The notes under the pieces: generated by a model
Told to the model about the DNA's origin: nothing
The model's input: the letters and a program-made list of their open reading frames with translations, nothing else
The model's database searches: none
From: Candidatus Avedoeria danica
GTDB taxonomy: Bacteria; Chloroflexota; Anaerolineae; Epilineales; Epilineaceae
Length of the DNA stretch: 64,000 nucleotides
Assembly (NCBI GenBank): GCA_016703025.1
Contig: JADJCV010000003.1
Location: 175,635-239,634 of the forward strand
Direction of reading: 5' to 3'
Part shown: one piece after another, positions 16,071-63,976 of the stretch
Position numbering within the stretch: position 1 is the first letter of the stretch
How the letters are laid out: each line of letters opens with the position of its first letter
Made by a program: the position numbers and the translations under genes

Positions 16071-17352
16071 CTAATACGAGTGCACGCGCGAAAACGTCCG
16101 CCCCAACCGCGGCATGAACGCCACGAACGGTCCCCAGCCGGCGACGACGATCGTCGGGTTGTTCAGCCGATAGAGGCCGAAGCCGCCGCGCGTGTCGTGG
16201 ACGATCGCCACGGCGCTGTACTCGCCGGACTGGCGCAGCGTGAACGTGCCGTGCTCCATTTGGGACAGCACGTGGTACGTCAGCGTGACGGTCTTCGACA
16301 TCGGCTGGGTCAACGTCCACTGCAGCGCGGTGCTCTCGCGGTCGTGCGGGATCGGCGGGTCGAACGAGCCGGGCACGACGGACCAGACGCGGCCGTCCGT
16401 CGGCTGCCCGAAGCGGTTCGCGCCGCGGTTGAGGCTCTCGCGGACGTCGAGCCGCCAGACGCGCGCCTCCGTGGCCCAGGCGCGGCCGACGAGCTCGTCG
16501 ACGGCCTCGTGCCACGCGACGACGGCCTCGCCTCGGCCGGCGGCGGCGCGAGCGGCGTCGCCCAGGCACGTCGTGGCGCACCCGTCGCCGGCGCACGCCA
16601 GCCGGACCTCGATGCCCGCCGCCGCCGCTTCGGCCAGCGGGGGGGCGACGTCCGCGCAGAGCGCCGCGCGCTCCGCCGCTCCGTCCGGCAACGTGGTCGC
16701 GCCGGCGACGAGGACGAGGATGTCACGCGCGGCGCGCACCGGGTTGTCGGGTGAGGGCGGATCGTCGTCGCGCGCGCACGAGCCGGATGTGGGCCTGGCG
16801 GATCGCCTCGGACAGCGTCGGCGCCGAATCGGGCTGCTGCGGGTCGGGCACGTCGACCCCTTCGCCGCTCAGGCAGAGCGCCACCTCTTCGGGGTCATTG
16901 ATCACGCCGCACATCGTCCGCGCCCCCGGACCGAAGTCGATGCGCCCGATGCGCGCGTACGCGTTCGACGTGATCACCAGGCGGGCGGACAACGACGCGA
17001 GGCCCTGGCGCACGCCGGCGTCCGAGGCGACGAGCGCGGCGTCGGTGACGAGCACGGTGTGGGCCGGTTCGATCGGTGCCGGGCAGCTGAAGCTCAGGAA
17101 CGTGCTCACGATCGCCTTCTCGGCGCGCCGGATGCGCGCCGGGGCCGCTTCCGTGCGGTTCGTCCGCTCGGGGTGGCAGAGGCTCGGCTGATCGCTCTGC
17201 GCCCGGACGACGGGCGCCGGCACAAAGGGCAGGCCGACGAAGGGCATCGCGGCGAGGACCGCCAGCGCGCCGGCGAGCGCGGCGAGAGCGCGCGGCACCA
17301 AGCGGGTCTGCCACGCAGTCCTTCGATCCGCTGACGGCGCGTGCGACGCCAT
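16071..17352 (-). pseudogene. VWA-like secreted protein split into two overlapping ORFs (frameshift or sequencing error near 16725-16760)
   Basis: ORF 16723..17352 has a signal peptide followed by HTVLVTDAALVASD...APTLSEAIRQAHIRLVRARRR. ORF 16071..16739 reads RAARDILVLVAGATTLPDG...AAAAGIEVRLACAGDG. Together they read as one VWA-like fold. The downstream frame stays open upstream of its GTG as ...ARDDDPPSPDNPVRAARDILVLV, across a (CG)n-rich stretch. Confidence 0.5.
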
Positions 17353-17693: not shown

Positions 17694-20600
17694 ATGCGAC
17701 CCCCCATGCGAGTCCGGATGATCACCGCCGCCGTCGTTGCCGCGGTCTGGACGCTGGCCGCCGGCCAAGGCGCCGACGCCGCGCCGCTGGCCCCGCCCGC
17801 GCCCGCTCACTACGCCGGCACCGTGTCGTACTACGGCGCACCCGCGCCGTTCGGCATGATCGTCAGCGCGCATGTCGGCGCCGTCCAGATCGCGATGGCG
17901 CCGGTGGTCTCGGGCGAGGGCGGCACGCACGTCTTCAGCATCAACGTCCCGGGCGACGACCCGGCGACGGGCGCCATCGAAGGCCCGGCGGAGGGTGAGC
18001 GCGTCCGCTTCCGGGTGCACGGCGTCCCAGCGGACAACATCGAGTTCTTCAATGCCGGAGAAGACCTGACGCTCAACCTCGAGGTCACGAAGATCGAGAT
18101 CTGCATCGGCGCGTACGAGGATCTTGACCGCGACAAGGCGTTCGACCCGGCCGAGCCGTGGCTGGAGGGCGCCAACCTGAACGTCGTTCAGTTCTTCGTT
18201 GTCCGGAGCTACCTGACGTTCGGGAACGAGGAGCCGAGCTGTGCGATGCACGACGCGGTCGACACGCTCATCCGTGTCGTCGCGCCACCCGCCAACTACG
18301 ACAGCGCGAGCCCGCTCGACGCGATCCAACGGGTCACGCAGCACCAGGGCGTCTTCAACACGTGGTTCCCGCTCGTGCCGACCGGTGCGACACCCACCGG
18401 CACCCTTCAGCCGACGACGACGCCCGCTACGCCGACGAGCACGCCGGCCGTCTTCCCGGGCCCGACCGGCGGCACCCCGCTCGCCTCGAACACCCCGACG
18501 GTCACGCCGTCGCCCACGAACACCCGCACCCCCACCCGCACCGCCACGACCGGCCCGTCGCCGACCCAGCCGGCGACGAGCATCCCGATGCCGACCGAGA
18601 CGCTGCCGCCGCCGTCCGCGACGCCGACGGCCACCGCCACCCAGGACCTCAAGAGCACGCTGAGCGTGAACACGACCGCCGATCCGGACACGGTGGGCAA
18701 CGCGACGCTCAGCCTGCGCGAGGCGATCCGCCTTGCGACGGGCGATCTGGCGTTGGCCGCCCTCTCCGCCGCCGAACGCGCCCGGATCAGCGGCGCGCCC
18801 GGCCCGCTGTCGGCCGACACGATCCGCTTCGCGCCGGCCGTCTTCCCGCCGGACGCCCCGGCGACGATCAACGTCCAGCCGCCGGCCGGCGTGAATCCGA
18901 ACTCGGGCGACGACCCGAACGCGCTGCCGGCGCCCAAGCCATCGCTTCCGCCGCTGTCGACCGGCAACGACACGATCGACGGCACGGGCGCCGGCGTCGT
19001 CGTCTCGGCCGGCATCAGCCCCGAGATCCCGATGATGTTCGACGGGTTGACCATCACCTCGAGCGACAACGTGATCAAGGCGATCGAGCTTCGCAACTTC
19101 GAGAGCGCGATCGTCGTGCGCGGCGTGGCCGAGCACAACCACATCGGCGGCCGGACGGCCGGCGACGGCAACATCGTCGTGAACAACATCAACGGCATCG
19201 TGCTGCGCGGCGGGGAGGTGGCCACGACCGAGGTTCTCGGCAACAAGGTGGGCGTCGACCGCGCCGGGCAGGCGGCCGGCAACGCCGGCTACGGCATCCT
19301 CGTCACCGAGGGCGCCCATCAGAGCATCGTCGGCGCTTCCAACGCGCCGAACGTCGTCAGCGGCAACACGAACGGCATCGGCGTGACGGGCGACGGGACG
19401 ACGGACAACGCGGTCTCGTCGAACCGGGTCGGGACGAACGCGGCCGGGACGGCGGCGCTGCCGAACGGCACCGGCGTCGTCGTGGCGGATGGCGCACAGG
19501 GCACGATCGTCGGCGGCGTCTCGGGGGCCGACGGCAACACGATCAGCGGCAACACCGGCGACGGCGTCTGGCTCAAGGACGAGTTGACGCAGTTCACGAG
19601 CGTCCAGAGCAACCTGATCGGCGTCGCCGCCGACGGCGTGACACCGCTGCCCAACGGCGGGGCCGGGGCGCTCGTGACGGATGGCGCCGACCAGAACTTC
19701 CTCTCGTTCGGCAACATCATCGCCTTCAACAAGGACCGCGGCATCAAGGTCGTCGGCGCACGGGCGCTGCGCAACACGATCCGCCGCAACAGCATGTTCG
19801 ACAACGCCGGCGGGGCGATCGTGCTTCTGGACGGCGCCAACAAGGACCTGCCGGCCCCCATCCTGACGGACACCGGGATGTTCATCGCCGAGGGGACGGC
19901 CGTGGCGAACAGCTTGGTCGATCTCTACTCGGACGGCGGCAGCCAGGGCCGGATCTGGGAGTTCACGGTCCGAGCTGGTGCGGACGGCCGCTTCCGCGTG
20001 GCGCGGCTGTTCCAGGGACCGAACATCACGGCTACGGCCACGGACGCCGAGGGCAACACGAGCCCGTTCGGCCATGACATCGACCTCGACCCGACCCCCG
20101 GACCGTCGCCGACCGGCGGGCCGACGGCCGTCCCGACGCTCGAAAACGTCGTCGGCCGGATCTTCCTGCCGTATCTGAATCAGAAAGCGGCGGTGTTCGA
20201 GGTGCTGACGATCGAGCCGCCCTACAGCGCGATCCCGATGGGCGGCCTCGTCGACCTCGCCGTCGTGGCGCACGATCTCGTCGATGTATACGGCATGCAG
20301 ATCGTCTTCGACTTCGACCCCGACGTTCTCCAGATCGTCGATGCGAACCCGGACGTGCCGGGCGTTCAGATCGCACAGGGCGATCTGCCCGAAGCGGATC
20401 GTGCCTTCTTCGCCGAGAACCGCGTCGACGTCGCCAACGGCCAGATCTTCTTCACCTGGACGCTGCTGAAAGGGGCGCCGCTGCAAGGCTCCGGCATCGT
20501 GGCCCGCATCCGGGTCCGGGGCCGGGGTCCGGGCCGATCGCCGCTGACCGTCAGCGAGCTCATGGTGAGCGATCCGACGGCCCGCCCGATCCACCTGCGC

Positions 20601-25000: not shown

Positions 25001-25685
25001 GGCGCGCGTGCGCGCGCTGACGCTCGAGGGCCGCGGCGCGATCGCCCGCATCCAGATCATGCCCGGCCCGCCGACGCTCCTCGACCTCGTGGCCGGCGCT
25101 GCGGCGGCGGAGGTCGGCGGCGCCACGGTGCCCGTCACGGTGACGCTGCGCGACCAGTACGGCAACCGCGCCGGCGGGGAAGAGGTGCGCTTCGAAAGCG
25201 ACCTCGGCGTGATGACGCCCGCCCGCCGCTTCGCCGCGCCGTCGGGCGTCGCCACGAGCACGCTGACGACGGGCACGCGGACCGGGCTGGCGACGATCGT
25301 GGCGCGCGGTGCGGCGCGGCAGGCCAGGGTGACGCTCGATATCCGCCCCGGCCCGCCGGTCACGCTCGACCTCCTCCTCGCGGCCGCGTCGGCGCCGCCC
25401 GGTGCGCGCGTGCACGGCTGGGCGACGGTCCGCGACCGCTTCGCCAACCCGGTGCCCGGGGTCGTCGTGCGGTTCACGACGGACATCGGGCGGCTGAACC
25501 GCGCCGAGGGGGCGACGGACGATGGCGGGCGGGCGGACATCGAGATCGCAACCACGGTCGGCGACCGGGGCAGCGGCCACGTGCGGGCGAGCGTCCGCAA
25601 CGGGGTGTCGCTCGACGCGTCGGCGGCACTGGCGGTGGATGCGGCGCGCGTGTACCTGCCGATCGGATTCCGCACGCGGCGCTGA
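22041..25685 (+). CDS. Large secreted/surface protein: N-terminal beta-helix-like region, multiple Big_1 (invasin/intimin-type Ig) domains, one DUF11 domain
   Basis: Big_1-type repeats occur at least 6 times (ADGQARAALVAAVADAVGRPVADGALVSF, RDEALIVVRVRDAFGNPVQDGTGVT, GELVIRAFDKFGRPAQDGTPVSL, and others). The DUF11 segment is VSISKIVEPESVVVPGERITYTVRYRNNGPGTVYGLRIEEPFPQGL. The protein ends in ARVYLPIGFRTRR. Confidence 0.85.
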   Translation: MMSERRLVRRERIPRPRRAWPSGAGALLGAGSSSRAGRALTAAAVVLVGALSPLVDLPHAAPVRAATVRVVDDDAGCGGLAPCYGTVQAAVDAAQSGDTVRVRPGRYMEAVLVVDKALSFEGPGVGPSPGTPDPARHAIWGTSSGALTVDAFSGDITATAVSGFVFAGVPGARGIALLGRRAGEPGPAGRPVGAVDTRITAAEVRDSSFEHEPPAAARLAGANDAPDARDPAALVAARVGRLQVDDVRMAGASDAAGLVLVDVDQATVRRSTIRDYAAGVRIFESLPPVGRATLVLGGAAADGNRLGGNHGPAIELINTAGSGTTSDVLAGDNDWGVSTAPEIEGSIVDGRDAAGLGRVRWQPPHGVPAAVTLAPTPPQIEADGQARAALVAAVADAVGRPVADGALVSFALVGPGTLQGGGGTAEAEGGAVRRTGEWGVFSATTYGPNSGGSYVRSERPGDALAWAFDAPAALLRLGHGSGADAAVSVAVDDRPAVVLSARGEADTWVDHVIARDLGPGPHVLTATVLTGRIALDALAAGPTTRGGTATAHVVAPAAVGEATVTAVAWGAAGAKSASATIRYVAGLPSAMRLSFGAPRLAVGGRTTSVTAAVEDGLGRPAPDGTVVTFAASGVTLATLTEMTRDGRATVGLTSGDAVGTAVVTATAGAGLVATGTLDIVAGPPAAVEIVPSRPSMTANSRDEALIVVRVRDAFGNPVQDGTGVTGATDLGTLTMHRAVSAGGIVTGVLRAGAAAGTATVRATASDAGGRAEGTAAVAFVAPDVSISKIVEPESVVVPGERITYTVRYRNNGPGTVYGLRIEEPFPQGLLGARIETFGPPLEADPAAEYAFSAPRLTAGQGGSIVISARVDTSLRWGSRFTMTNQVRAFAPGTAERTPADNVAAATIVIAPESVYTLTLTAPETLAVGGASGELVIRAFDKFGRPAQDGTPVSLSAEFGMGTVTPELVTTEHGVARATFVSDRRAGLARVRALTLEGRGAIARIQIMPGPPTLLDLVAGAAAAEVGGATVPVTVTLRDQYGNRAGGEEVRFESDLGVMTPARRFAAPSGVATSTLTTGTRTGLATIVARGAARQARVTLDIRPGPPVTLDLLLAAASAPPGARVHGWATVRDRFANPVPGVVVRFTTDIGRLNRAEGATDDGGRADIEIATTVGDRGSGHVRASVRNGVSLDASAALAVDAARVYLPIGFRTRR

Positions 25686-31502: not shown

Positions 31503-31624
31503 GTCACCACGGGTCGGCCGTTCGGCCGTCCCAGTGTGGCCCTTGCGCCGCAGCCCGTAGCTGCACGCCGCAGGGCGTCCTCACTCACCGTATGCGTCGA
31601 GATCAAGAGAGGGTTGCGACGGAA

Positions 31625-43538: not shown

Positions 43539-47857
<4,319 letters not shown>

Positions 47858-47861
<4 letters not shown>

Positions 47862-48729: not shown

Positions 48730-48771
48730 GCGCATCGTTCCCGTCATCTTGCGCATCGTTCCCGTCATCTT
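48730..48771. repeat. 21-bp perfect tandem repeat (GCGCATCGTTCCCGTCATCTT), 2 copies
   Basis: Copies at 48730-48750 and 48751-48771. The second copy contains the stop codon of the 48765..52382 gene. Confidence 0.9.
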
Positions 48772-51700
48772 CGGAGCGCCGGCATGTAGGCGATCATCCG
48801 ATCCGGGCCCGCCGTCGGCGTGGCACCGGGGATCTGCACCGGCTCGAGCGGCGGGCGGTTGCTCGGCAGGCACGTGTTGGACAGGTGGAAGTCCACCTTG
48901 GCGCTGCCGAGCGGGAAGTCGACCGCCGCGAGGTGGCGCACGGCCGGGCTGTTCGGGCAGCCGAGCCACGCGCCCGGCAACGCCTCGATCGACACGTCGT
49001 AGCCGCCGGCGTCCGGCGCGCCGAGGCTGAACGGGGCAATCTCGATCCGATCGACGGAGATCGAGCGCTGGCGCGCCACCTCGTCGCCGGCGGCGTTGCG
49101 GACGACGAACGTCAGTGCCGGCAAGGGCGATCGGGCCGCGGCGGCGCGGTCGGCGTCGTCGTACGTGCCGTCGCACGCGGGGCAGGCCGGGTCGTCGTTG
49201 CCCGTGACGTTGACGACGGCCACGGCGAGGAGCGTGACCTTGCCACCGCCGGGCGTCGCCGTGCCGGCCACGGAGCGCGTCGGTGTTGCGGTCGGCGTCC
49301 GGGTGGCGGTCGGCACCGGGCCGACATCGGCGGTCTTCTCGAGCTGCGGGACGAGCAGCCGCGCCGGCGGGACGGCCGGCCGCGGCAGGATGCGCATCGC
49401 CGCGGCCATCGCGTCGTCGTGCAGCCCGTCGTCGGACGTCTCGGCGTACGTGGCGACGACCGGCCCGGTGGCGGTGATCTCAGCCCATGCGCCCGGCGCG
49501 GCCGCGGCGCCGACGACCGCGCGGCCGTCGAAGGCGACCGCCGCGCCCGCGGGCAGCGCGGCGGTGCAGCCCGCGCAGGCAAGCGCGCCGCCGGCCGCGT
49601 CGTGCACGTCGAGCGCGACGTTCACGACGGCGTCGCCGACGTTCATCACGTGGATCGTCGTCGCGCGCCCATCGCGACCGGTCAGCAGGCGCGGCACGAG
49701 CCAGCGGCCACCGGCATCGGCGGCGGCCATCAGCCGATCGGCCGCCACGGCCCACCCACCGGCCGCGCTCGAGACGGACTCGACGGCGAGGCCGATGATC
49801 CCGCCGTCGAGCGTCGTCAGTGTGGCCGCCGCCGCGCAGCCGGCGGGCATCGCCGGCTCGGCGCCGACGTCGACGATGCGGTTCGCGCCGGCGGCCACGC
49901 TGAACGGCGCGCCGCTCAGCCGGAAACCGGCGCACGTGCCGGCCGTGCCGAGGTAGGCCGGCCGGACGACGACGGCCGTCGCACCGGGGTTGGCGACGAC
50001 GAGGCGCGTGTTCCGCCGCGCGCCGCTGCCGGCGCCCCCGAGCGGGCCGGCGGCCGCGACGCCGCGCACGACGCGCGGGGCGAAGAGCTTGGCGGCGGCG
50101 TCCGAGAGGCGCACCGCGCCGACATCGTACGCCCCGCGTGCGCTCGCGGCGGCGTCGACGAGCACCTGGGCGCCGAACGGCCGGTCGCTCGTCAGCCGCG
50201 CCCAGCCGTCGAACGCCGCGGGGGCGGCGATCGCCAGCCGGAACACGGCGCTCGGACCGACGGCGACGGACTGGCTGCCGACCTGTCGGCCGGTGCGGTC
50301 GAGGAACTCGGCGTGTACGTTCACGAGGAAGGTGGCCGCCGGATTGTGGATGGACAGCACGCCGGTCTCCCCGGCCGCCCCTTGCGGCGCGAACGGCACG
50401 GCCAGCTCGAATCCCTCGGCGGCGGGCTCGGCGAGGACGGCGGCCCCGCCCGTCCACTCCGTCCGCGCCGCGGCGCCGACCGCATGACCGCCGACGACGA
50501 TGGCGGCATACCGGCCGAGGCCGACGTCGTCCAGCGCGGCCAGTGCAAGCGCGTGCGGCCGGAGCGGCGGCTGGTCGCGGACGATGCGCGTCGGACCGAC
50601 CTTCGTGCCACCCACGGTCCCGCTGCCTTGGACGAGGAAAAGATCGGCCGCCAGGAACGCCGGGGCGTCCTCGAGGTTGGCCAGCTGAAGCGTGCTCAGC
50701 GCGCCGCCGGCCATGCCGCCGCCGGGCGCGAAGGGCGGGACGGTCGGCGGTGGGGTCGCGCTCGGGGCGGCGATCGGGGTGGTTGGCGTCGCGGTGGCGG
50801 CGTCCGCGGGGGGGGCGGCGCGCAGGACCAGGGGGAGCCACGTTCCCGGACTGGTGTCATCGCCGGTGCTGAGCCAGCGGAAGACCGCCGGCCACAGGAC
50901 CGCATCGCCGCTGCCGTCGGCCGGCGCAGCGCGGACGATCGCGACGATGCGACCCTCGTCGGCGGCGACGACGGCGCCGCCGGCCTGGGCGCGCAGCCCG
51001 GCCGGGAGCGCCGCCGCGCGCAACCGCCACGTACTGAACGGGGCGATGAGGCGGCGGCACGGCTCGCCGCAGTCCAACAGCGTGCCGTCGGCTGTTGCGA
51101 GATGGACCGTCGCCGAGGCGAACGTGCCTTCGAGGTTCATGATGAACAGATCGCTGTCGAGCGCCGCGCCGCTGTCGTCGGCGGCGAACCACGGGACAGC
51201 CAACTCGGCCAAGGACGAGGCGCCGTCGTCGCGCCGGAGCGCGTTCGTGGCGGCGGCCAGCGTCTGATCGCCGCGCGTCTGGCGGGCGATGAGCGTGGCG
51301 GCGATGGGCTGGTCCGCACTGATGAGGGCCGTCGCCAGACAGCCCGCGGGCAGGCCGCTCGGACTGGTCGGCAGGCCGGCGCCGTCGCCCTGATCGAAGA
51401 TCGTCATTGCGCCGGCAGCTAGAGTAACGGGCGGATGGGCGATCGTCTGCCCCGCGCACGTCCCGCCGAAGCCGACATAACTCACGCGCACGTCGCCGCC
51501 GGCCCCGCCGACGTTCACGACGGCCAGGCGGGTGGCATCCGGGCCGAGCGACGGGTCGTCCGGCAGCGCGGCGTGGACGAGCGGGACGAAGAGGGCGGTG
51601 GTGCCGCGCTCGGCAGGCACGCCGGCGAAGTCGTACACCGCCGCGGTCTCAGCCACATCCACGAGGGCGTGGACCACGGGGATCGCGTCTCCGACGGGGT

Positions 51701-52382
51701 GGATGCGCATCGTCCCGACGAAGCCGTCCGGCGTGTTCGGCCGCAGGGCGATGAAAGCGGGGTCGAGGCCGAGGTCGATCGCCACCGCGGCGTTGGGGGC
51801 GACCGTGTAGGAGGTCGTGGCTTCCGGGATGGCGGTGCCGAGCGGCATCACCGTGACCTCGAAAGTCGCAGGCGCCGCGCTCCGACTCTGGAGCGTCACG
51901 ACGCTCGTTTCGCCGCGGTGGCTGGCCGCGACGAGGGGCACCCAGACGTCGCCCACCTTGTCGAGGAGCGGTGATCCGGCAATGTCCGCCGCCCGACCAC
52001 CGCTCTCCGGCCAGCGGTGCTGCGCGCGCGCGACGACGCGCTCGCTCACGAGCAGCCGACCGCTGTACGCGCCCGCCTCCGCCGCGCTCGGCGCCCCGGG
52101 CACGACGTTGACCCAGCCGCGCTTGGGCACTTCGTGCGTCGTCGTCGACGCCAAGCTGCCGGTGGCCGGGCGGTACAACCGCAGGTCGCCGCCGGCCGCC
52201 GGCTGCGCGCCGCCGACCCAGTGCGCGTCGACGAGCGCGAGCGTCGTCTGGCCGGCGCCGGCGATGCCGAGCGAGCGGGCGCGGGTGGGCGGTGCGGCGG
52301 GCGCGACGGCGCCGGCGACGACGCACGAGACGACGGCGGCCGCCAGCGCGGGTCCTAGGTTGTGGCGACAGCGCTCGCCCAT
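48765..52382 (-). CDS. 1206-aa secreted repeat protein built from at least 7 copies of the same uncharacterised module found in the giant paralogs
   Basis: The likely start is ATG 52382 (MGERCRHNLGPALAAAVVSCVVAGAVAPA). The track's start at 52775 would overlap the upstream S8 gene. Module starts seen: VWVPLVAAS, LFVPLVHAAL, LAVPWFAADD, WLPLVLRAA, LAVPFAPQG, LFAPRVVRG, WLVPRLLTG. Each is followed by a ..T.L.V.N.G.. strand. The protein ends in IAYMPALRR. Confidence 0.8.
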   Translation of the reverse strand: MGERCRHNLGPALAAAVVSCVVAGAVAPAAPPTRARSLGIAGAGQTTLALVDAHWVGGAQPAAGGDLRLYRPATGSLASTTTHEVPKRGWVNVVPGAPSAAEAGAYSGRLLVSERVVARAQHRWPESGGRAADIAGSPLLDKVGDVWVPLVAASHRGETSVVTLQSRSAAPATFEVTVMPLGTAIPEATTSYTVAPNAAVAIDLGLDPAFIALRPNTPDGFVGTMRIHPVGDAIPVVHALVDVAETAAVYDFAGVPAERGTTALFVPLVHAALPDDPSLGPDATRLAVVNVGGAGGDVRVSYVGFGGTCAGQTIAHPPVTLAAGAMTIFDQGDGAGLPTSPSGLPAGCLATALISADQPIAATLIARQTRGDQTLAAATNALRRDDGASSLAELAVPWFAADDSGAALDSDLFIMNLEGTFASATVHLATADGTLLDCGEPCRRLIAPFSTWRLRAAALPAGLRAQAGGAVVAADEGRIVAIVRAAPADGSGDAVLWPAVFRWLSTGDDTSPGTWLPLVLRAAPPADAATATPTTPIAAPSATPPPTVPPFAPGGGMAGGALSTLQLANLEDAPAFLAADLFLVQGSGTVGGTKVGPTRIVRDQPPLRPHALALAALDDVGLGRYAAIVVGGHAVGAAARTEWTGGAAVLAEPAAEGFELAVPFAPQGAAGETGVLSIHNPAATFLVNVHAEFLDRTGRQVGSQSVAVGPSAVFRLAIAAPAAFDGWARLTSDRPFGAQVLVDAAASARGAYDVGAVRLSDAAAKLFAPRVVRGVAAAGPLGGAGSGARRNTRLVVANPGATAVVVRPAYLGTAGTCAGFRLSGAPFSVAAGANRIVDVGAEPAMPAGCAAAATLTTLDGGIIGLAVESVSSAAGGWAVAADRLMAAADAGGRWLVPRLLTGRDGRATTIHVMNVGDAVVNVALDVHDAAGGALACAGCTAALPAGAAVAFDGRAVVGAAAAPGAWAEITATGPVVATYAETSDDGLHDDAMAAAMRILPRPAVPPARLLVPQLEKTADVGPVPTATRTPTATPTRSVAGTATPGGGKVTLLAVAVVNVTGNDDPACPACDGTYDDADRAAAARSPLPALTFVVRNAAGDEVARQRSISVDRIEIAPFSLGAPDAGGYDVSIEALPGAWLGCPNSPAVRHLAAVDFPLGSAKVDFHLSNTCLPSNRPPLEPVQIPGATPTAGPDRMIAYMPALRR

Positions 52383-52584: not shown

Positions 52585-55500
52585 TCATTCCACCAACCGC
52601 CGCGCCACCGGCAAATACACCGTCGTCCGCCCCCCCGTGACCACCGCGACCACCTCGCCGACGAACGTGTGGCCGTTGGCGGTCGTCGCCTCGGCGCGGA
52701 CGGTGTAGCGGCCGGGGCGCGTGTAGGCCAGCGTCGTGCCTGGCGCCGTGGTCGTGACGAAGGGACGGCCATCACCGGCGTCCCATCGCCAGCGGACGAT
52801 CGTCCACGGCGTGCCGTCCAGCGGCGGCATGGAGGCCGACACGTCGAGCGCTTCCGGCCGGTCGTCCACCGGCGTCGTCGCGACGACGACCTGGCCGTCG
52901 TCCGGCTCGTTCGCCCAGCCGACGATGTCGCCGAGGAGCTCGGCGCGCGAGAGCGTGTCGTCGCCCGTGGCCACGGCCTCGATGCTGAAGCCGGCGAACA
53001 TCGCCCGCCACGGGATGCCGGGGGCGCGGGTCGGTTGCTCGAGCGAGGCGTCGGCGGATACGCCGGTCATCGCGCTGCCGCCGCCGTCGATCTCGATGAA
53101 GCTCCGGACGTACGGGAAGATCCGGTCGGCGACGCCGACGGCGCCGAGGCCGGTGTCCGGCGGCTGCACGTTGCCGACGGCCTGCGTGCGGAGCGTGGCC
53201 AGCGGCGCGCCGAGGTCGACGACGGCACCGAGGCCGGCGGCGTCGGGGCTGGCGACGGCGGACAGGCGGATCGGCTTGTCGAACAGGCGGACGGGCTGGA
53301 GGCGGCCGGTGAGCGGCGCGTTGTCCGTGCGGAGGTCGAAGCCGGCGAAGTAGCGGGACAGGAGGGTCATCGCCCCGCTGTTCTGGACGTCGAGCGCCGT
53401 GCCGAGGCCGTGGCTGTAGCCGGTGCCGCTGACGAGCATTCGTCCGCCCCCGAGCAGGTACATCTGGAGGGCCGTCATCCCGCCGGGCAGCCGGTCGAGC
53501 GGCGCATCGCCGTCGCCGCACGCCACGATGACGAGGCGGTAGCCCTGGAGGACGGACAGCGGCGGCGTGCCCGGGCGCTCGCCGCCGGCGACCGTCCAAA
53601 CGTCGTAGCTCACCCCGAGCGTGTCCAGCGCCGCCGTCCAGTAGCGGCCGTTGTCGGCGCCGTCGTCGAAGCCGCCGCCCCCGCCGCCCGGCAGGCCGGG
53701 GATGCCCGGGAAGCCGCCGCCGCCGGGCCGGGTCTTGCGGCGGACGTTCACGACGAGGACATCCTCGACGCGCGGTGCGACGCGGAGGCGGTACGTGGCG
53801 TGGACGCTGCGTTGGCCGCGCGTGAGGACGATCCGGCCGTCGTAGGCGCCGGGCGCGAGGGCGGTGGGGTCGAGGACGACCGCGATGTCCGCGGCGCCGC
53901 CTTCCGGCACGGCGATCGTCGCACCTTCCGGGAACGAAACAGGTACGGGGGCCGGGCCGGTGCCGGGGGCGTGCGTGAGCGTCCACTCGGCGGCGCCTTC
54001 GGCGGCTTGGCGGACGTCGGCCAAGCGCAGGCGCAGGGTCCGCGTGCCGATCGCCGATCGTGTCGCGTCCGTGCCTGCGTCCAGATCGGCGGCCGGCGGC
54101 ATTTCGTCGGCCGGCGTCAGCGTGCCGAGGTCGAACGACGGCGGGTCGATGAGGAGCTGCGGGTCGATCGCCGCGGCCACGTCCAGTCGCCCAGAGCCCT
54201 GCTCGGTGGCCGGGGCGAGCGCACCGCTCGTGCCCGCCCCGACGGCGACGTCGACCGTGCCCGAGATCCGCGTCGTGGTCATCAGCGCCGCCTTGACCTG
54301 GTCCGGCGTCCACTCGGGCCACGCCTGTCGAACGACCGCCACGGCACCCGTCACGTGCGGGCTGGCCATCGAGGTGCCGGAGGCGGTCGTGAAGCCGGCC
54401 GGGGCGCCGGTGATCGCGTCCGTGCTCGTCGAGAGGATGTTCGTGCCGGGTGCGGCCAGGTCGGGCTTGAGCGGGGCGAAGCGGGCGGTCGTCGAGTCGG
54501 GGGCCGGGCCGCGGCTCGAAGTGCTGTTCACGACGTCGACGCGGGCCGCGTCGAAGGTGGCCTCGGGCGTCGTGTCGTAGATCAACTGGAGGGAGGCGTG
54601 GGTCTCGGCGTAGGCCACGAGGTCCGTGGCGCCTTGGCCGCCGATGATCGCGATCGGCGGCAGCGTGACGCCGGCCGGCAGTTGGCCGGCGATGAGCGGC
54701 ATGAGCTGGCCCATCAGCTCGACGAGCGCGGCCGTGGTCTGCAGATCGCCCGTCGTGTGGAAGACGACGGCTTCGGCCTGAATGGTGGCGGCGTTGATGA
54801 TCTTGGTGACGAAGGCCAGCTGCGCGGGCAACGGGAATGGGATGAGCGGCGACTGCGTGGCGCACGCGCCGTCCCACGGGCCGAGGAGGATCTTGCCGCG
54901 CCCGCCGAGGCCCATCTCGATCAGGTTGCACATGTCCGTCTTGAACGCCGGGCGCTCGAGCCGGGCGACGGCCTTGCCGAACGTCTGGTAGGCCGCCGGG
55001 TGCTTCGTCAGCTCGACAGGCAAGCCCGCGTCCTTGGCGAAAACGTAGTACGCGAAGCCGCGCCCGGTCTCGCTGTTGGCCACCGTGATGACCTCGGGGA
55101 TCATCTGGTGCGGCCCGCCGAGCGTCGCCTCGCCGTTCGCGCCCGAGTTGCCGGCCGCCGCGACGACGACGACGCCCGCGTCGTGCGCGTTCTTGAAGGC
55201 CACGCTCACCGGGTGGTGCGCGGCCTGGTAGATGTTCATCAGCGCCGTGCCCCACGAGTTGTTGATCACGTCCGCCCCGTCCAGCACGGCGTCGTCGATC
55301 ATCCGCAGGATCTCGGGCGTGTAGGCATCGCTGAACTTGTAGGCCATGACGTAGGCGCCCGGCGCGACGCCCGAGAGCTCGAGCTGCCCGGTCCCGGCCG
55401 TGCCCGGCGCGCCGAAGATCGAGACCCCGGCCGCCGTGCCGGCGACGTGCGCGCCGTGGAAGCCGGCGAGGCCCTTGGCCAGCGGGTCGTAGTCGACCGT

Positions 55501-56346
55501 CGGGTCCGTGCCCGCGGCGACGTTCTCGGGGTTGGCGTACGTCCGGGCGACGATGACCTTGTTGTTCGTGTACTCGGCCACCTTCTCGGCCGGAAACGCG
55601 GTCACCTTGTCGCCGACCGTCACCGTGCTGCGCGGAAAGCCTTCGGGCGCCGTGAAGCCGCCGTCGTCGAAGAACGGGTGGGCGGCGGTGATCCCGCTGT
55701 CGATCACGGCGATCCGGATCCCGCGGCCGGCCCGCATCTGGCCGCCGATCCGCGGATCGGACCACGCGATGCGGGCGCGGATGAGCGGCAGGCTGGCGTC
55801 CATCAGCGGTTCGACCGGCTGCTCGCGCGTCACGGCCACGACGCCCGGCAGGCGACTGGCCGCCGAGGCCTGCTCGGGCGTGAGGCGCACCGTGACGCCG
55901 TTGAAGACGACGTCGTAGTGGTAGAGCGCGGCCGCGCCGGGCGCGACGGCCTGCAGCGAGGCGATGAAGGCGTCCTGGGCGCGCCGCAGCACTGCGCGGT
56001 AGGCGCCCTCGGGCGGCGCGAGGCGGGCGGCCTTGGCGGCGGCGCGCATCGGGACGGAACGGGCGGGGCGGACGGCGAGGGGGGCGTCGGCCAGCTGGAC
56101 GATGTAGCGGGAGGTGGCGGCGACTGAGGAGGCCGTGTCTGTAGTGCTTGTGCCGGCTGCGCTTGTGCCGGCTGCGCTCGTACCCGCTGCGCTCACATCT
56201 GATGCACCCGCGATCGTCGACTTCGCAAGCGCGGACGATGCGGTGACGCGGCTCGAGGCAGCGTCGGCGGTGGCCATGCCGAGCAGCGTCGCCAGGAACA
56301 GACAGCGTACGGCAGCGGAGGCGCGGACTGGGCGGCGACACGACAT
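52585..56346 (-). CDS. Secreted S8 (subtilisin) peptidase with PA-domain insertion, large C-terminal extension and PKD domain
   Basis: The likely start is ATG 56346 (MSCRRPVRASAAVRCLFLATLLGMATADA, with GGAG 8 nt upstream). The catalytic triad contexts are IAVIDSGIT, HGAHVAGTAAG and [16 protein letters not shown]. The PKD-like segment is WRWDAGDGRPF...GRYTVRAEATTANGH. The protein ends in TVYLPVARRLVE. Confidence 0.9.
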   Translation of the reverse strand: MSCRRPVRASAAVRCLFLATLLGMATADAASSRVTASSALAKSTIAGASDVSAAGTSAAGTSAAGTSTTDTASSVAATSRYIVQLADAPLAVRPARSVPMRAAAKAARLAPPEGAYRAVLRRAQDAFIASLQAVAPGAAALYHYDVVFNGVTVRLTPEQASAASRLPGVVAVTREQPVEPLMDASLPLIRARIAWSDPRIGGQMRAGRGIRIAVIDSGITAAHPFFDDGGFTAPEGFPRSTVTVGDKVTAFPAEKVAEYTNNKVIVARTYANPENVAAGTDPTVDYDPLAKGLAGFHGAHVAGTAAGVSIFGAPGTAGTGQLELSGVAPGAYVMAYKFSDAYTPEILRMIDDAVLDGADVINNSWGTALMNIYQAAHHPVSVAFKNAHDAGVVVVAAAGNSGANGEATLGGPHQMIPEVITVANSETGRGFAYYVFAKDAGLPVELTKHPAAYQTFGKAVARLERPAFKTDMCNLIEMGLGGRGKILLGPWDGACATQSPLIPFPLPAQLAFVTKIINAATIQAEAVVFHTTGDLQTTAALVELMGQLMPLIAGQLPAGVTLPPIAIIGGQGATDLVAYAETHASLQLIYDTTPEATFDAARVDVVNSTSSRGPAPDSTTARFAPLKPDLAAPGTNILSTSTDAITGAPAGFTTASGTSMASPHVTGAVAVVRQAWPEWTPDQVKAALMTTTRISGTVDVAVGAGTSGALAPATEQGSGRLDVAAAIDPQLLIDPPSFDLGTLTPADEMPPAADLDAGTDATRSAIGTRTLRLRLADVRQAAEGAAEWTLTHAPGTGPAPVPVSFPEGATIAVPEGGAADIAVVLDPTALAPGAYDGRIVLTRGQRSVHATYRLRVAPRVEDVLVVNVRRKTRPGGGGFPGIPGLPGGGGGGFDDGADNGRYWTAALDTLGVSYDVWTVAGGERPGTPPLSVLQGYRLVIVACGDGDAPLDRLPGGMTALQMYLLGGGRMLVSGTGYSHGLGTALDVQNSGAMTLLSRYFAGFDLRTDNAPLTGRLQPVRLFDKPIRLSAVASPDAAGLGAVVDLGAPLATLRTQAVGNVQPPDTGLGAVGVADRIFPYVRSFIEIDGGGSAMTGVSADASLEQPTRAPGIPWRAMFAGFSIEAVATGDDTLSRAELLGDIVGWANEPDDGQVVVATTPVDDRPEALDVSASMPPLDGTPWTIVRWRWDAGDGRPFVTTTAPGTTLAYTRPGRYTVRAEATTANGHTFVGEVVAVVTGGRTTVYLPVARRLVE

Positions 56347-56459
56347 CGAAGGCTCCTCGAGACAACGGAGTGCGGATTTCAGGTTCGGATGATAGCCGAG
56401 CGCCGGTCGGACGGTCCCGGGCGGCGGCCCGCAGATCAAGCCGTGCATGCCCAACGGCC

Positions 56460-62233: not shown

Positions 62234-63976
62234 TCAGTCGCGTCGCGCGACAGGAAGGTACACGGTGACCGACGGTCCCGGATCGTCGAACATCGTCGGC
62301 GTCGGAAGCGTTCCTGCCGTTGCAGTGACGGACGACGTGGAAGATGGACGCGGGGTCGCCGAGCCGGCCGCAGGCGTGTCCGTCGGCGGCACGCCCGGGG
62401 GCGACCTGAGGCCCTCGTCCGTCATCCGATCGATCTGGATGCAGCGGACCTGTCCGGCGAGCCCCATCCGGTCGTCGTAGATCGCCCGCACGGTCGATTG
62501 CCGGTCGGCTGGGGGGGCGGAGAGCTCGAGCGTTCGGCTCGGGTCGTCGAGCGTGAAGCCGCCCTCCCAGCTGTTCGGGGCGACCGTCCCGCACAGCCAT
62601 GCCGCGCGCGAGCCGTCCAGCATGCGCAGCCGCCGGACCAAGAGGTCGGCGTCCGTCTCGATCCAGATCGTCGCGCCGCCCGGCCGCTCGTGGACGCGGA
62701 AGCTGTGGGGCGCGCCGGGCGTGAGGGGCGGCGTCGTCGGGCGGGGCGTGCCGGCTGTGGGTGTCGGGCGGACGGGCGTCGCGCCGCCGGGTGTGGCGGT
62801 CGGTCCGGGTGTGGCGGTCGGGCCGGGCGTCGGGGCGGGCGGCCAGGCGAGGGGCGGTGCGGGCGGCGCGGCGGGGTCGGCGACGAACCACGGGCGGGCC
62901 GTCGCGTCGCGGCGGAAGAAGTCGTCCAGGAGCGTGGCCACTTTCAGGCGGCCATCGGGCGAGGGGTGCGTGCCGTCGTCGACGAAGTCGCTGCAGGCGT
63001 ACCACAGGCCGTCGGCGCGGGCGGTCAGGCCATCGGCCCAGAGGTTGGGGCCCCACAACAGGGCTGGCGCGACGACGGCGCCTTTGGCCGAATCGGCGTT
63101 CAGCGCGGCGTCGCCGTCGACTTGGCGGCGGATCAGCCACTGGATGCTGAACGCCGACTCGTAGGCGTACGGTTCGGGGTTCAGCGTCGTGGACGCGTAG
63201 CCGCCGTACGTCCGGTTGCCGAAGTAGGCCAGCTGCACGTTCGGAAACCGCGCGGCGGACAGGCGGACGATGTCGCCGAGCTCGTCGGCGAGCGTCTGGG
63301 CGTAGGCCGGGAAGCCGCTGCGCGGGCCGGCATCGGCCTCCTTGATCCAGAGCGCCTGCACCTGGGCCGCCGTGACCCCCGCCGCCTGCAGCCGCTGGTC
63401 GACGACGCGCCAGAAGTTGGCCGACGGGTCGCGGATCACGGCCGCCGTCTGCCCCCCCTGGGCCCCGTCGACGATCGTCAGCCGCGGGTTCAGCCCGCCG
63501 TTCGATGTCGTCAGTGACGCGAACCGGCTGAACGACTGCGTCGCGTTCGACATCCCGAGGCTGAGCAGCACGATCCGCCCGTCCGCTGCCGGCGTCCCAT
63601 CCGCCGCGCGCGGCGCGATCTGCGCGGCGCGCGCGGCGGCGAGCGCGGCATGGGCGGGCGGCGGGACATTGGCGCCCCGGCCGTACAGGCCGCCCGCGAA
63701 TCCCTGGTACATCGCGCCGCCGAGGGCGTCGATCGGGATGAGGCCGGTGGACGTGCCGGCGCAGTTCGCAAGCGGGGCGGCGCTGGCCGGGACCTCGCCC
63801 GCGGGCCGCGCGGCGGCGACGGCGAGGCAGGCGAGCGCCGCGCACGTGCAGCTCACCACGAAGCGAATCGCGGCGTGTCTCGAGGATTGAAGCGGGTTCC
63901 ACACAGCGGCCCTCCCGTTCAGCGCACCGTCGGCGCCAGGCACAGCCCGACGCAAGGCAGAACGCGACGCGGTCAA
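62234..63976 (-). CDS. Secreted SGNH/GDSL-like hydrolase with Pro/Thr linker and extra C-terminal domain
   Basis: IVLLSLGMSNATQ is a GxSN-type block I, and DGTHPS is a DxxH-type block V. The start is uncertain. The protein ends in VTVYLPVARRD. Confidence 0.7.
   Translation of the reverse strand: MTASRSALRRAVPGADGALNGRAAVWNPLQSSRHAAIRFVVSCTCAALACLAVAAARPAGEVPASAAPLANCAGTSTGLIPIDALGGAMYQGFAGGLYGRGANVPPPAHAALAAARAAQIAPRAADGTPAADGRIVLLSLGMSNATQSFSRFASLTTSNGGLNPRLTIVDGAQGGQTAAVIRDPSANFWRVVDQRLQAAGVTAAQVQALWIKEADAGPRSGFPAYAQTLADELGDIVRLSAARFPNVQLAYFGNRTYGGYASTTLNPEPYAYESAFSIQWLIRRQVDGDAALNADSAKGAVVAPALLWGPNLWADGLTARADGLWYACSDFVDDGTHPSPDGRLKVATLLDDFFRRDATARPWFVADPAAPPAPPLAWPPAPTPGPTATPGPTATPGGATPVRPTPTAGTPRPTTPPLTPGAPHSFRVHERPGGATIWIETDADLLVRRLRMLDGSRAAWLCGTVAPNSWEGGFTLDDPSRTLELSAPPADRQSTVRAIYDDRMGLAGQVRCIQIDRMTDEGLRSPPGVPPTDTPAAGSATPRPSSTSSVTATAGTLPTPTMFDDPGPSVTVYLPVARRD

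What the first reader, a model, noticed from the sequence alone, without database searches (positions are those of the whole stretch)
52585..52623. Shared C-terminal tag (V/A)Y(L/M)P(V/I/A)xxR(R) on four unrelated secreted proteins, with the same motif at internal domain boundaries
Four proteins in the window end with this motif:
- S8 peptidase: ...TVYLPVARRLVE (52585-52623).
- SGNH-like hydrolase: ...VTVYLPVARRD (62234-62269).
- Big_1 protein: ...ARVYLPIGFRTRR (25644-25685).
- Repeat protein: ...MIAYMPALRR (48765-48797).
The codons differ between genes (for example tat ttg ccg gtg versus tac ctt cct gtc), so the conservation is at the protein level.
The same motif also marks internal boundaries, usually just after Pro/Thr linkers:
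- AYLPLAYRN, before the second VWA domain (about 12941-12985).
- RIFLPYLNQ, before the cohesin (20157-20183).
- YRLYLPSVVKG, before the VWA-like end of the putative anti-sigma protein (about 44157-44195).
- The opening strand of every module unit.
The tags have no following hydrophobic helix, so they are not sortase-, PEP-CTERM-, PGF-CTERM- or GlyGly-CTERM-type signals. Two hypotheses follow: a sorting or processing signal, or a free first strand able to dock onto module-containing scaffold proteins by strand complementation. Both are speculative.
Basis: partly seen in the sequence, partly recalled or inferred. Interest (0 to 1): 0.7.

Follow-up and report, generated by a model that had tools for sequence, protein, structure and literature searches.

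The report
Short C-terminal tag on Chloroflexota secreted proteins
Four unrelated secreted proteins in this Chloroflexota window end in the same ~10-residue "YLP" peptide, which is conserved in relatives, widespread in metagenomes and apparently undescribed, and is probably a new kind of cell-surface localisation tag.

Summary
Four signal-peptide proteins in the window end in (V/A)Y(L/M)P(V/I/A)xxR, and a possible fifth ends in a looser form. Shuffles expect 0.04 such proteins.

The window comes from an Ardenticatenales-type Chloroflexota MAG. Orthologues keep the tag while the linker before it varies freely. In the SGNH family, 5 of 12 Chloroflexota genomes carry the tag and 0 of 66 genomes from other phyla carry a convincing one. 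Those other homologues have T9SS C-terminal domains (CTDs), dockerin-like or other C-terminal domains at that position, or nothing.

An unbiased DNA scan of metagenomes for Y-L-P-L-V-L-R found 25 of 34 in-gene copies within 0-5 codons of the stop. The carriers have signal peptides and 47 different Pfam families. AlphaFold2 leaves the SGNH tag disordered, so it is not a strand of its own domain.

No Pfam or NCBIfam model covers the tag, and no paper in the library contains it. It lacks the transmembrane segment of all sortase-type signals.

Function is inferred, not shown. I favour an envelope-retention tag that docks as a buried beta-strand. A cleaved covalent sorting signal is nearly as likely. 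The "same motif opens every module" claim is only loosely supported.

The parts
52588..52623 (-). C-terminal tag TVYLPVARRLVE of the S8+PKD peptidase (gene 52585-56349)
   Evidence: Translation. The Pfam PKD match ends at residue 1227-1228 of 1254, so the tag lies beyond the PKD match. The orthologue in L001 ends TTLYLPALRVTAP.
62237..62269 (-). C-terminal tag VTVYLPVARRD of the SGNH-fold hydrolase (gene 62234-63976), after a Pro/Thr/Ser-rich linker of about 45 residues
   Evidence: Translation. Orthologues at 70-99% identity keep [YF]LP[VL]A[RH]R[DE], while the linker varies and has indels. In the AlphaFold2 model, residues 530-568 and 574-580 have pLDDT below 50 and no secondary structure. 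The SGNH fold is confirmed.
25644..25682 (+). C-terminal tag ARVYLPIGFRTRR of the Big_1/Invasin_D3/DUF11 protein (gene 22041-25685)
   Evidence: Translation. The last Big_1 match ends at residue 1193 of 1214, at profile position 86 of 93, so the tag starts about 10 residues after the Pfam match.
48768..48797 (-). C-terminal tag MIAYMPALRR of the DUF5719-like module repeat protein (gene 48765-52382)
   Evidence: Translation. The tag is identical in P0122, which is 91% identical overall. It follows the linker NRPPLEPVQIPGATPTAGPDR.
16074..16127 (-). Possible fifth, looser tag: ...FVAFMPRLGRTFSRVHSY at the end of ORF 16071-16739
   Evidence: Translation. It matches the looser pattern used. No Pfam domain was found. 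This ORF overlaps ORF 16723-17352, so the gene model is uncertain.
12950..12976 (-). Internal copy AYLPLAYRN between a Pro/Thr linker and the second VWA domain of protein 12392-15949
   Evidence: The same arrangement (linker, [YF]LP[LI].., then roughly 10-20 residues including a Cys, then the first VWA strand) recurs in L004 (PAFLPIALKDPGC...VDVVLVIDAS) and L093 (PAYLPLLLRERC...VDVVLVLDAS).
20157..20183 (+). Internal copy RIFLPYLNQ just before a weakly cohesin-like domain of protein 17676-21878
   Evidence: The Cohesin Pfam hit is below threshold (E 0.0025, 18.5 bits against 24.1).
44154..44186 (-). Internal copy YRLYLPSVVKG in the large LVIVD-repeat protein 43539-47861, which lies next to an ECF sigma factor gene
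   Evidence: The downstream 217 residues have no Pfam match.
50823..50840 (-). Internal WLPLVL(R) in the repeat protein, followed by a Pro/Thr/Ala-rich stretch of about 35 residues and then the next module body
   Evidence: It is conserved as LLPLVLR plus a PT linker in P0123.
51954..52271 (-). N-terminal module of the repeat protein, which has no preceding hydrophobic-Pro strand (candidate acceptor; inference only)
   Evidence: One search counts nine module bodies, eight in-line strands and one orphan strand at the C-terminus. The N-terminus of P0123 likewise lacks a strand.

Best explanation
**What it is.** The tag is a short, lineage-specific C-terminal localisation signal of Chloroflexota, seen here in genomes labelled Anaerolineae, Anaerolineales and Ardenticatenaceae. 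Its consensus is [T/R]-[L/A/V/I]-[Y>F/W]-L-P-[L/W/V]-[L/A]-x-R, with 3-12 residues after the Pro (a further 0-8 after the Arg). It is appended to Sec-exported enzymes and adhesins, either straight after an Ig-like domain or at the end of a Pro/Thr linker.

**Proposed mechanism.** The tag is not removed. It holds the protein at the filament surface by inserting as a buried beta-strand into a receptor protein of the envelope. The strand is seven consecutive hydrophobic residues with a central Pro, flanked by Arg. The insertion would be donor-strand or edge-strand complementation. The beta-sandwich modules of local surface proteins each begin with a strand of the same hydrophobic-Pro-hydrophobic type, so a module lacking that strand is a plausible receptor. 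The N-terminal module of the DUF5719-like repeat protein is one such candidate.

**Shown.**
- The tag is real, conserved under selection and strongly C-terminal.
- In the one family tested with taxonomy, it is restricted to Chloroflexota.
- It is found on signal-peptide proteins of many families.
- It occupies the position that other C-terminal sorting or anchoring domains occupy in homologues.
- It is not part of the SGNH protein's own fold.

**Inferred.**
- The localisation function, at about 0.6 overall.
- The non-covalent strand-docking mechanism, at about 0.35.
For: **Enrichment.**
- Window: 4-5 proteins carry the motif against 0.04 expected.
- Metagenomes: 25 of 34 in-gene YLPLVLR copies lie 0-5 codons from the stop and none lie at 6-20.
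- Viral-contig control: 6 of 120 matches fall in long ORFs, and 1 of those is a tag.

**Selection.**
- The tag is conserved across SGNH orthologues at 70-82% identity. The roughly 45-residue linker before it (aligned over 60 columns) has 15% invariant columns, with indels.
- The S8+PKD orthologue and a third protein in the syntenic L001 also carry tags.

**Modular swap within one family.**
- Tags are present in 33 of 120 SGNH homologues.
- 5 of 12 Chloroflexota genomes have the tag, and a sixth (L003) carries an internal copy.
- 0 of 66 genomes from other phyla have a convincing tag. Those homologues carry T9SS CTDs, dockerin-like, planctomycete or acidobacterial C-terminal domains, or nothing.

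**Carriers.**
- Tagged proteins have signal peptides and 47 Pfam families typical of surface proteins, including DUF11, PKD, beta-helix, BNR, C25, S8, LVIVD and FG-GAP.

**Structure.**
- The tag is disordered and unattached in the AlphaFold2 model of the SGNH protein.
- In the confident model of the conserved core (pLDDT 83.6), module opening strands with the same hydrophobic-Pro-hydrophobic pattern are real beta-strands. The VHLP strand sits in a block with mean pLDDT 95.
- The repeat protein has nine module bodies, eight in-line strands, an orphan strand at its C-terminus and none at its N-terminal module.

**Context from the literature.**
- Filamentous Chloroflexota have a shared outer layer and a proteinaceous lattice whose composition is unknown (PMC13319060).
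Against: - No receptor has been identified.
- The conserved 620-residue core family always has its own opening strand in cis, so it offers no obvious vacancy.
- DUF5719-like repeat proteins are rare (3 hits), whereas the tag is widespread.
- Module strands lack the Tyr and Arg of the tag.
- The near-obligatory position at the very C-terminus is not required for a docking strand. It fits a cleaved signal at least as well.
- Every well-characterised short C-terminal motif on prokaryotic surface proteins is processed by a dedicated enzyme.
- No multimer prediction or experiment was possible.
Confidence: 0.35

Rival explanations
1. The tag is a cleaved sorting signal. A dedicated peptidase or transpeptidase recognises YLP..R, removes the last few residues and attaches the protein covalently to a wall or outer-layer component. 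This would resemble sortase, PorU of the T9SS, or ligases such as PatG and butelase that use short C-terminal leaving groups. In this reading the tag is a collapsed version of the usual signature/hydrophobic/basic design.
For: - The position is strictly C-terminal, with a short tail of variable length after the Arg.
- The order 'signature, hydrophobic residues, Arg' mirrors the tripartite design described for known signals (10.1101/2023.06.07.544157).
- In Bacteroidota and Ignavibacteria homologues the same position is occupied by T9SS CTDs, which are cleaved.
- Tagged proteins include C25 and S8 peptidases.
- A CPBP/Rce1-like intramembrane protease lies at 11498-12364, between secreted-protein genes.
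Against: - There is no transmembrane segment to hold the substrate at a membrane enzyme: only 2-4 hydrophobic residues follow the Pro.
- No sortase, exosortase or rhombosortase gene is present in the window.
- No family recurs next to 85 neighbour genes of tagged loci.
- No small or Gly/Thr residue typical of known cleavage sites is conserved.
Confidence: 0.3
2. The tag is an export signal for crossing the shared outer layer of the filament. It would be recognised by an unknown translocon and would not itself act as an anchor.
For: - The T9SS CTD, which occupies the same position in homologues, is primarily a translocation signal.
- Filamentous Chloroflexota have an extra outer layer and a protein lattice (PMC13319060).
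Against: - No candidate translocon is known, and none was found near the tagged genes.
- The chemical nature of the outer layer is unknown.
- The internal copies before VWA domains are unexplained by this reading.
Confidence: 0.1
3. The tag has a purely intramolecular or structural role. It could be a capping strand for the protein's own last domain, a folding or solubility element, or a protease-recognition site that separates domains of polyproteins.
For: - Copies sit at linker-domain boundaries: before VWA domains in three independent sequences and between two enzymes in L003, P0017 and P0042.
- In many metagenome cases the tag directly follows a PKD or Ig-like last strand.
Against: - In the SGNH protein and the repeat protein the tag is separated from any domain by linkers of about 20-45 residues, and AlphaFold2 leaves the SGNH tag disordered.
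- The same peptide follows at least 47 different domain families, so it cannot be the specific last strand of each.
- Cleaving off a few terminal residues would serve no obvious purpose.
Confidence: 0.1
4. The pattern is chance or a compositional artefact of a high-GC genome, or a DNA-level element at gene ends.
For: The genome is 72% GC and rich in Pro, Leu, Arg and Ala codons.
Against: - 0 of 5000 shuffles reach the observed count.
- Codons differ between the four tags.
- The tag is conserved in orthologues.
- 25 of 34 metagenome copies are C-terminal, against a viral control in which almost all matches are in non-coding frames.
Confidence: 0.01

Closest known systems
Tripartite C-terminal sorting signals (LPXTG/sortase, PEP-CTERM/exosortase, PGF-CTERM/archaeosortase, GlyGly-CTERM/rhombosortase, MYXO-CTERM/myxosortase)
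   Same: - A short signature motif at the C-terminus of many unrelated Sec-exported surface proteins.
- Lineage-specific.
- The signature contains Leu-Pro and is followed by hydrophobic residues and then Arg.
   Different: - There is no membrane-spanning hydrophobic segment: 2-4 residues instead of about 15-20.
- The whole tag is about 10 residues rather than 25-35.
- No cognate sortase-type enzyme was found.
- No NCBIfam model matches.
T9SS C-terminal domain (Por_Secre_tail, PF18962)
   Same: It occupies the same position in homologous SGNH hydrolases of Bacteroidota and Ignavibacteria. It is found on a similar range of cargo: proteases, esterases, PKD/Ig-repeat adhesins and C25 peptidases.
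   Different: The CTD is a folded beta-sandwich of about 80-100 residues. The YLP tag is about 10 residues and is predicted to be disordered. No T9SS gene was seen in the window or its neighbours, but genome-wide absence was not tested.
Donor-strand complementation in chaperone-usher pili and type V (FimA/Mfa1) pili
   Same: In those systems a short terminal hydrophobic strand of one protein completes a beta-sandwich of another. In type V pili the donor is C-terminal. Here the local modules begin with a strand of the same type, and one protein has a strand-less first module and an orphan last strand.
   Different: - Pilus donor strands alternate hydrophobic and polar residues. This tag is hydrophobic on both faces and has a central Pro.
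- The carriers are enzymes and adhesins of many families, not pilins.
- No complementation has been demonstrated.
Dockerin-cohesin (cellulosome) and other non-covalent anchors (SLH, WxL, LysM)
   Same: A modular appendage, often after a Pro/Thr linker, that could gather diverse enzymes on a scaffold. Phycisphaerae homologues of the SGNH enzyme carry dockerin-like repeats at this position.
   Different: Those anchors are folded domains of 40-160 residues, and dockerins bind calcium. The only cohesin-like domain in the window is below the Pfam threshold.

Membership tests
LPXTG / sortase-type and other tripartite C-terminal sorting signals | A signature motif near the C-terminus of secreted proteins | tested here: met
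   A conserved [YF]-L-P-x-x-x-R motif with 3-12 residues after the Pro. The sequence differs from LPXTG, PEP, PGF and the other known signatures.
LPXTG / sortase-type and other tripartite C-terminal sorting signals | A hydrophobic segment long enough to span the membrane after the motif (10.1101/2023.06.07.544157) | tested here: not met
   Only 2-4 hydrophobic residues follow the Pro, and at most 12 residues in total.
LPXTG / sortase-type and other tripartite C-terminal sorting signals | A basic cluster at the extreme C-terminus | tested here: inconclusive
   One Arg is nearly constant and RR is common in the window clade (RRD, RRLVE, RTRR, RR). Many tags end in RN, RNY or RSGP instead.
LPXTG / sortase-type and other tripartite C-terminal sorting signals | A cognate sortase, exosortase, archaeosortase, rhombosortase or myxosortase in the genome | tested here: inconclusive
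   None is present in the 64-kb window or among 85 neighbour genes of tagged loci. One CPBP/Rce1-like protease lies at 11498-12364. Whole genomes could not be searched.
LPXTG / sortase-type and other tripartite C-terminal sorting signals | A match to a curated model of a known sorting domain | tested here: not met
   NCBIfam gave no hit covering the tag, either for whole proteins at E<=1 or for isolated tails at E<=10. Pfam also gave none.
T9SS C-terminal domain | A folded CTD of about 80-100 residues matching PF18962 or TIGR04183 | tested here: not met
   No Pfam or NCBIfam hit. The tag is about 10 residues and disordered in the AlphaFold2 model.
Donor-strand complementation systems | A terminal strand that is absent from, and completes, an incomplete beta-sandwich of a partner | not testable with these tools
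   Only indirect evidence exists: the strand and module count in the repeat protein and module strands of the same type in the core model.
Dockerin | Duplicated calcium-binding EF-hand-like repeats of about 22 residues each | tested here: not met
   The tag is too short and has no Asp/Asn-rich loops. Pfam found no dockerin.
DUF5719 (PF18986), for the repeat protein that carries one of the tags | A match to the Pfam model above its gathering score | tested here: inconclusive
   The window protein gives no hit even at E<=10. Its 48%-identical homologue P0123 matches at E 2.2e-8, 34 bits against a cut-off of 26.2.

The most novel reading that the evidence does not exclude
The YLP tag is one half of a split beta-sandwich. 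A free 'strand 1' is carried by dozens of different secreted enzymes and adhesins and plugs into strand-less modules of envelope scaffold proteins. The result would be a cellulosome-like or pilus-like assembly system based on donor-strand complementation. It could also drive head-to-tail polymerisation of proteins such as the DUF5719-like repeat protein and the 96-115-residue 'Gly-rich domain plus tag' proteins. Such a system would be specific to filamentous Chloroflexota and unlike any described protein-anchoring system.
Probability: 0.25. Interest if true: 0.9.

Novelty: new variant of a known kind. Interest (0 to 1): 0.72.

Why it matters
How Chloroflexota place proteins on or in their unusual multilayered envelope is essentially unknown. 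These bacteria are abundant in soils, sediments and activated sludge and are hard to culture.

A tag of about 10 residues that marks a large share of the secretome would have several uses:
- It would give a simple sequence rule for predicting surface-exposed proteins in thousands of MAGs.
- It would provide a handle, as a peptide bait or through phylogenetic profiling, for finding the unknown receptor or sorting enzyme.
- It would add a class of C-terminal signal without a transmembrane segment to a catalogue in which every short signal so far has one.
- If it proves to be a docking strand, it could be a compact natural tag for protein display.

Tried and rejected
- **Exact look-up of window proteins in public assemblies.** Two proteins were not on record. 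The source genome was instead reached through P0121 (GCA_963852785.1).
- **Literature searches.** The first searches for YLPL-type strings were swamped by chemical names. A cleaner search gave 0 papers for LPLVLR and LPLVMR, and only unrelated eukaryotic or peptide hits for the other strings. A search for DUF5719 gave nothing.
- **HMMER search of 1.84 billion representatives with PKD plus tag.** Giant multi-PKD proteins dominated the results. Only 2 of the 150 best hits end in a tag, so the search said little.
- **Neighbour enrichment in the 12 Chloroflexota loci.** With only 164 proteins, 6 were tagged against 1.6 expected, and most were the query family. The sample is too small to estimate a proteome-wide rate.
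- **Search for a recurrent neighbour gene (sortase, CPBP, peptidase) next to tagged genes.** No family was present in more than 2 of 85 proteins.
- **Search for core-family members lacking their opening strand, as possible acceptors.** All complete members have the strand.
- **PDB sequence search with a small tagged protein.** No match.
- **Cluster look-up to obtain taxonomy for metagenome tags.** The sequences exist with the predicted starts, but none carries a name. The taxonomy of the YLPLVLR metagenome set is therefore unverified.
- **Rejected: a DNA-level element.** Codons differ between the tags.
- **Rejected: a PDZ or tail-specific protease signal.** The last residues are variable and polar.
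- **Rejected: stop-codon read-through into a downstream module.** The downstream genes have their own signal peptides.
Full report
**1. The observation**

The window is 71.8% GC. Real genes were picked by third-position GC.

| Protein | C-terminus | Tag coordinates |
|---|---|---|
| S8+PKD peptidase | ...TTVYLPVARRLVE* | 52588-52623 (-) |
| SGNH-fold hydrolase | ...VTVYLPVARRD* | 62237-62269 (-) |
| Big_1/Invasin_D3/DUF11 protein | ...ARVYLPIGFRTRR* | 25644-25682 (+) |
| Module repeat protein | ...MIAYMPALRR* | 48768-48797 (-) |

- Pfam shows that the four proteins share no domain.
- The SGNH fold was confirmed from the AlphaFold2 model. The best PDB matches are PatB and a sialate esterase, at probability 1.0.
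- All four have N-terminal signal-peptide-like sequences (read by eye).
- In 5000 composition-preserving shuffles it never appeared in a C-terminal window.
- A looser pattern, derived independently from homologues, gives 5 proteins against 0.04 expected.
- The fifth is ORF 16071-16739, ending ...FVAFMPRLGRTFSRVHSY.
- Codons differ between the tags, so the signal is at protein level.

**2. Source and orthologues**

- The repeat protein is 99% identical to a protein on a 1.23-Mb contig of GCA_963852785.1.
- Named relatives are Ardenticatenales, Anaerolineae and Caldilineae MAGs.
- SGNH orthologues at 70-99% identity end VYLPVARRD, VFLPVARRDW, AYLPLARRD, LYLPVARRE and IYLPVAHRD.
- The roughly 45-residue linker in front of these tags is variable and carries indels: 15% invariant columns over the 60 aligned columns, against 64% in the catalytic domain.
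- The closest genome locus, L001, is syntenic. Three of its proteins end in tags:
  - the S8+PKD orthologue: TTLYLPALRVTAP
  - the SGNH orthologue: VAYLPLARRD
  - a module protein: GGRLYLPRLFYLRPR

**3. A modular, lineage-specific appendage**

- Among 120 SGNH homologues, 33 end with a hydrophobic-[YFWC]-[LIM]-P... tag, usually after a Pro/Thr-rich linker.
- I scanned one genome per species for this family and read the true frame to the stop codon.
  - 5 of 12 Chloroflexota copies carry the tag. A sixth, L003, has it internally in a fusion with an esterase.
  - None of 66 complete copies from other phyla carries a convincing tag.
  - Two loose regex hits in those 66 lie inside a T9SS C-terminal domain (CTD) and an acidobacterial C-terminal domain.
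- At the same position the other phyla have T9SS CTDs (PF18962), dockerin-like repeats, a planctomycete-type domain, an acidobacterial Ig-like end, or nothing.
- The tag therefore occupies the position that known C-terminal sorting or anchoring modules occupy in homologues.

**4. An unbiased test at metagenome scale**

I scanned public metagenome contigs for DNA encoding Y-L-P-L-[V/L]-L-R, with no condition on position.

- Of 50 matches with at least 90 open codons upstream and a stop codon on the contig, 28 lie 0-5 codons before the stop.
- For YLPLVLR alone the figure is 25 of 34, with none at 6-20 codons.
- Typical endings are YLPLVLRN, ...RNY, ...RNYR, ...RSGP and ...RQ.
- The preceding residues favour [Y/H]-[R]-[V/I].
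- Of the 20 carriers whose ORF is not cut by a contig end, 16 have a classical signal peptide by a simple heuristic.
- Four of five predicted protein sequences exist verbatim in the public protein collection.
- The 28 carriers hit 47 Pfam families, including DUF11, PKD, beta-helix/NosD, BNR/sortilin, Peptidase_C25, Peptidase_S8, LVIVD, FG-GAP, cadherin-like and Big domains.
- The same pattern in viral contigs gave 120 matches. Only 6 are in long ORFs and only 1 is a tag.
- The remaining in-gene metagenome copies are of three kinds:
  - unrelated cytoplasmic proteins
  - one copy after a signal peptide plus linker (L148)
  - two boundary copies (L190 for YLPLVLR; L093, a YLPLLLR copy before a VWA domain)
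- The taxonomy of these metagenome contigs could not be established.

**5. Relation to the carrier's own fold**

- In the AlphaFold2 model of the SGNH protein (32-sequence alignment), the catalytic and middle domains are confident.
- Residues 530-568 and 574-580 have pLDDT below 50 and no secondary structure.
- Pfam coordinates put the PKD and Big_1 matches about 10-15 residues before the start of the tag.
- The tag is therefore not simply the last strand of each protein's terminal domain.
- In many metagenome examples, however, it follows an Ig-like last strand after only 2-4 residues.

**6. Internal copies and modules**

- The VWA copy (AYLPLAYRN) is part of a recurrent arrangement, seen also in L004 and L093: linker, motif, roughly 10-20 residues including a Cys, then the first VWA strand.
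- The 'cohesin' is a sub-threshold hit, and the 'VWA-like' end of the anti-sigma-like protein is unsupported.
- The copy between two linkers in the L003 SGNH-esterase fusion is most simply a relic of a tagged gene fused to its neighbour.
- The three giant paralogues (25978-30561, 31304-36937, 37139-42307) share a roughly 620-residue core.
  - The core is 57-95% identical (two outliers at 41-44%) across the 120 listed of 369 hits. The named ones are mostly Ardenticatenales, Anaerolineae or Caldilineae.
  - It begins QVHLPILNF..., or a close variant, in every complete member.
  - AlphaFold2 models it confidently (pLDDT 83.6, pTM 0.88) as a mostly beta stack.
  - The hydrophobic-Pro-hydrophobic segments are beta-strands at module starts.
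  - One module resembles Thermotoga TM1070 (PDB 1nc7).
The sequence resemblance to the tag is generic, because the module strands have no Tyr-Leu and no Arg.
- The repeat protein is a distant DUF5719 relative.
  - It has nine module bodies but only eight in-line strands.
  - Its first module has no strand, and its C-terminus is an orphan strand.
  - This fits donor-strand complementation but does not demonstrate it.

**7. Mechanism**

The shown facts point to a localisation or anchoring signal. They are:
- selection on a stand-alone terminal peptide;
- restriction to exported proteins of one phylum in the family tested;
- interchange with known sorting domains.

I put this general function at about 0.6. 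For the mechanism I favour non-covalent docking of a buried strand, at about 0.35, for two reasons:
- The tag is seven consecutive hydrophobic residues with a central Pro, flanked by Arg.
- This is the same physical type as strands that the local beta-sandwich modules bury.

A cleaved, covalently attaching signal is nearly as likely, at about 0.3:
- The strict terminal position fits it.
- The signature/hydrophobic/Arg order mirrors the tripartite design of known signals (10.1101/2023.06.07.544157).

Against the cleaved-signal model:
- There is no transmembrane segment.
- No cognate enzyme was found in the window or beside 85 neighbour genes.

Cryo-tomography of a filamentous Chloroflexota shows a shared outer layer and a protein lattice of unknown composition (PMC13319060). 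This gives either model a plausible destination.

**8. Novelty**

- No Pfam or NCBIfam (June 2026) model covers the tag.
- No paper in the searchable library contains LPLVLR or LPLVMR. The other strings searched hit only unrelated eukaryotic or peptide papers.
- The tag belongs to the known kind 'C-terminal tags on secreted proteins'. Its architecture is new: about 10 residues, no membrane-spanning segment and no folded domain.
- I rate it a new variant of a known kind.
- There is about a one-in-four chance that it is a categorically new strand-donation docking system.

Noticed in passing
window 25978-30561, 31304-36937, 37139-42307 (+): Three giant paralogues (DUF7948 plus SBBP beta-propeller at the N-terminus) share a C-terminal core of about 620 residues. 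The core is 57-95% identical across most of the 120 listed hits (369 in all), with varied N- and C-terminal additions (P-domain, lamin-tail, DUF11). The named hits are mostly Ardenticatenales, Anaerolineae or Caldilineae. AlphaFold2 models the core confidently (pLDDT 83.6) as stacked TM1070-like beta-sandwiches. Its function is unknown, and such conservation suggests a structural envelope protein.
   Followed up: partly
window 28754-30516 versus 34350-36112: The first two paralogues share a 1420-nt exact DNA repeat and are identical apart from one mismatch until 30517. There they diverge, and the first gene ends early (...VERKGDALGRGRTGRRVGG*). This points to recent duplication or gene conversion with a frameshift, or to an assembly artefact.
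   Followed up: partly
window 11498-12364 (-): A CPBP/Rce1-like intramembrane protease (PF02517, E 2e-9) lies between an S8+CBM96 peptidase and the double-VWA protein. Members of this family process some C-terminal sorting signals (myxosortases). No link to the tag could be shown.
   Followed up: partly
window 16071-16739 and 16723-17352 (-): Two overlapping ORFs with no Pfam match. The upstream one has a signal peptide and the downstream one ends in a tag-like FVAFMPRLGR.... This may be one gene split by a frameshift.
   Followed up: no
window 48765-52382 (-): The repeat protein has nine module bodies and eight in-line hydrophobic-Pro strands. There is no strand before the first module and an orphan strand at the C-terminus. 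Two of the strands are separated from the next module body by Pro/Thr-rich stretches of 28-35 residues.
   Followed up: partly
L145:327-818(+), L197:3603-4073(-), L135:734-1054(+), L210:1571-1945(-): A family of very small secreted proteins (96-115 residues): a signal peptide, a Gly-rich domain (GGGYDLxWxTIDGGG...GYTLSGGFWGG) and a YLPLVLR tag. The same Gly-rich domain opens a larger PKD protein in L086. These could be subunits of a polymer.
   Followed up: no
L210 (IMG/VR contig IMGVR_UViG_3300037284_000051): One contig classed as viral (61% GC) encodes a small tagged protein. It is either a host gene on a prophage or a misclassified contig, or a phage of Chloroflexota that uses the host tag.
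   Followed up: no
L161:1145-3139 and 2932-4785 (+); L168:2-490 and 3065-5548 (+): Tagged genes occur in pairs on single metagenome contigs. The window has 4-5 in 64 kb and L001 has 3 in 21 kb.
   Followed up: no
L003:12412-13344 (+): A copy of the motif sits directly after a signal peptide (AQD-VETRSYLPFALWGE) and is followed by a Pro/Thr/Ser linker of about 70 residues and a small domain. This is a possible N-terminal version of the tag.
   Followed up: no
window 47858-48634 and 43539-47861 (-): An ECF sigma factor gene is followed by a 1440-residue protein with LVIVD repeats and a CarboxypepD_reg-like domain. The pair lies immediately downstream of the S8+PKD and repeat-protein genes and is syntenic in GCA_963852785.1 (L081).
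   Followed up: no
window 17676-21878 (+): A 1400-residue secreted protein has a Pro/Thr/Ser linker of roughly 220 residues between a weakly cohesin-like domain and a C-terminal domain with no Pfam match. It also has sub-threshold NCBIfam matches to a CSLREA-type N-terminal motif (14 bits against a cut-off of 25) and a parallel beta-helix repeat (10.8 against 19.45).
   Followed up: no
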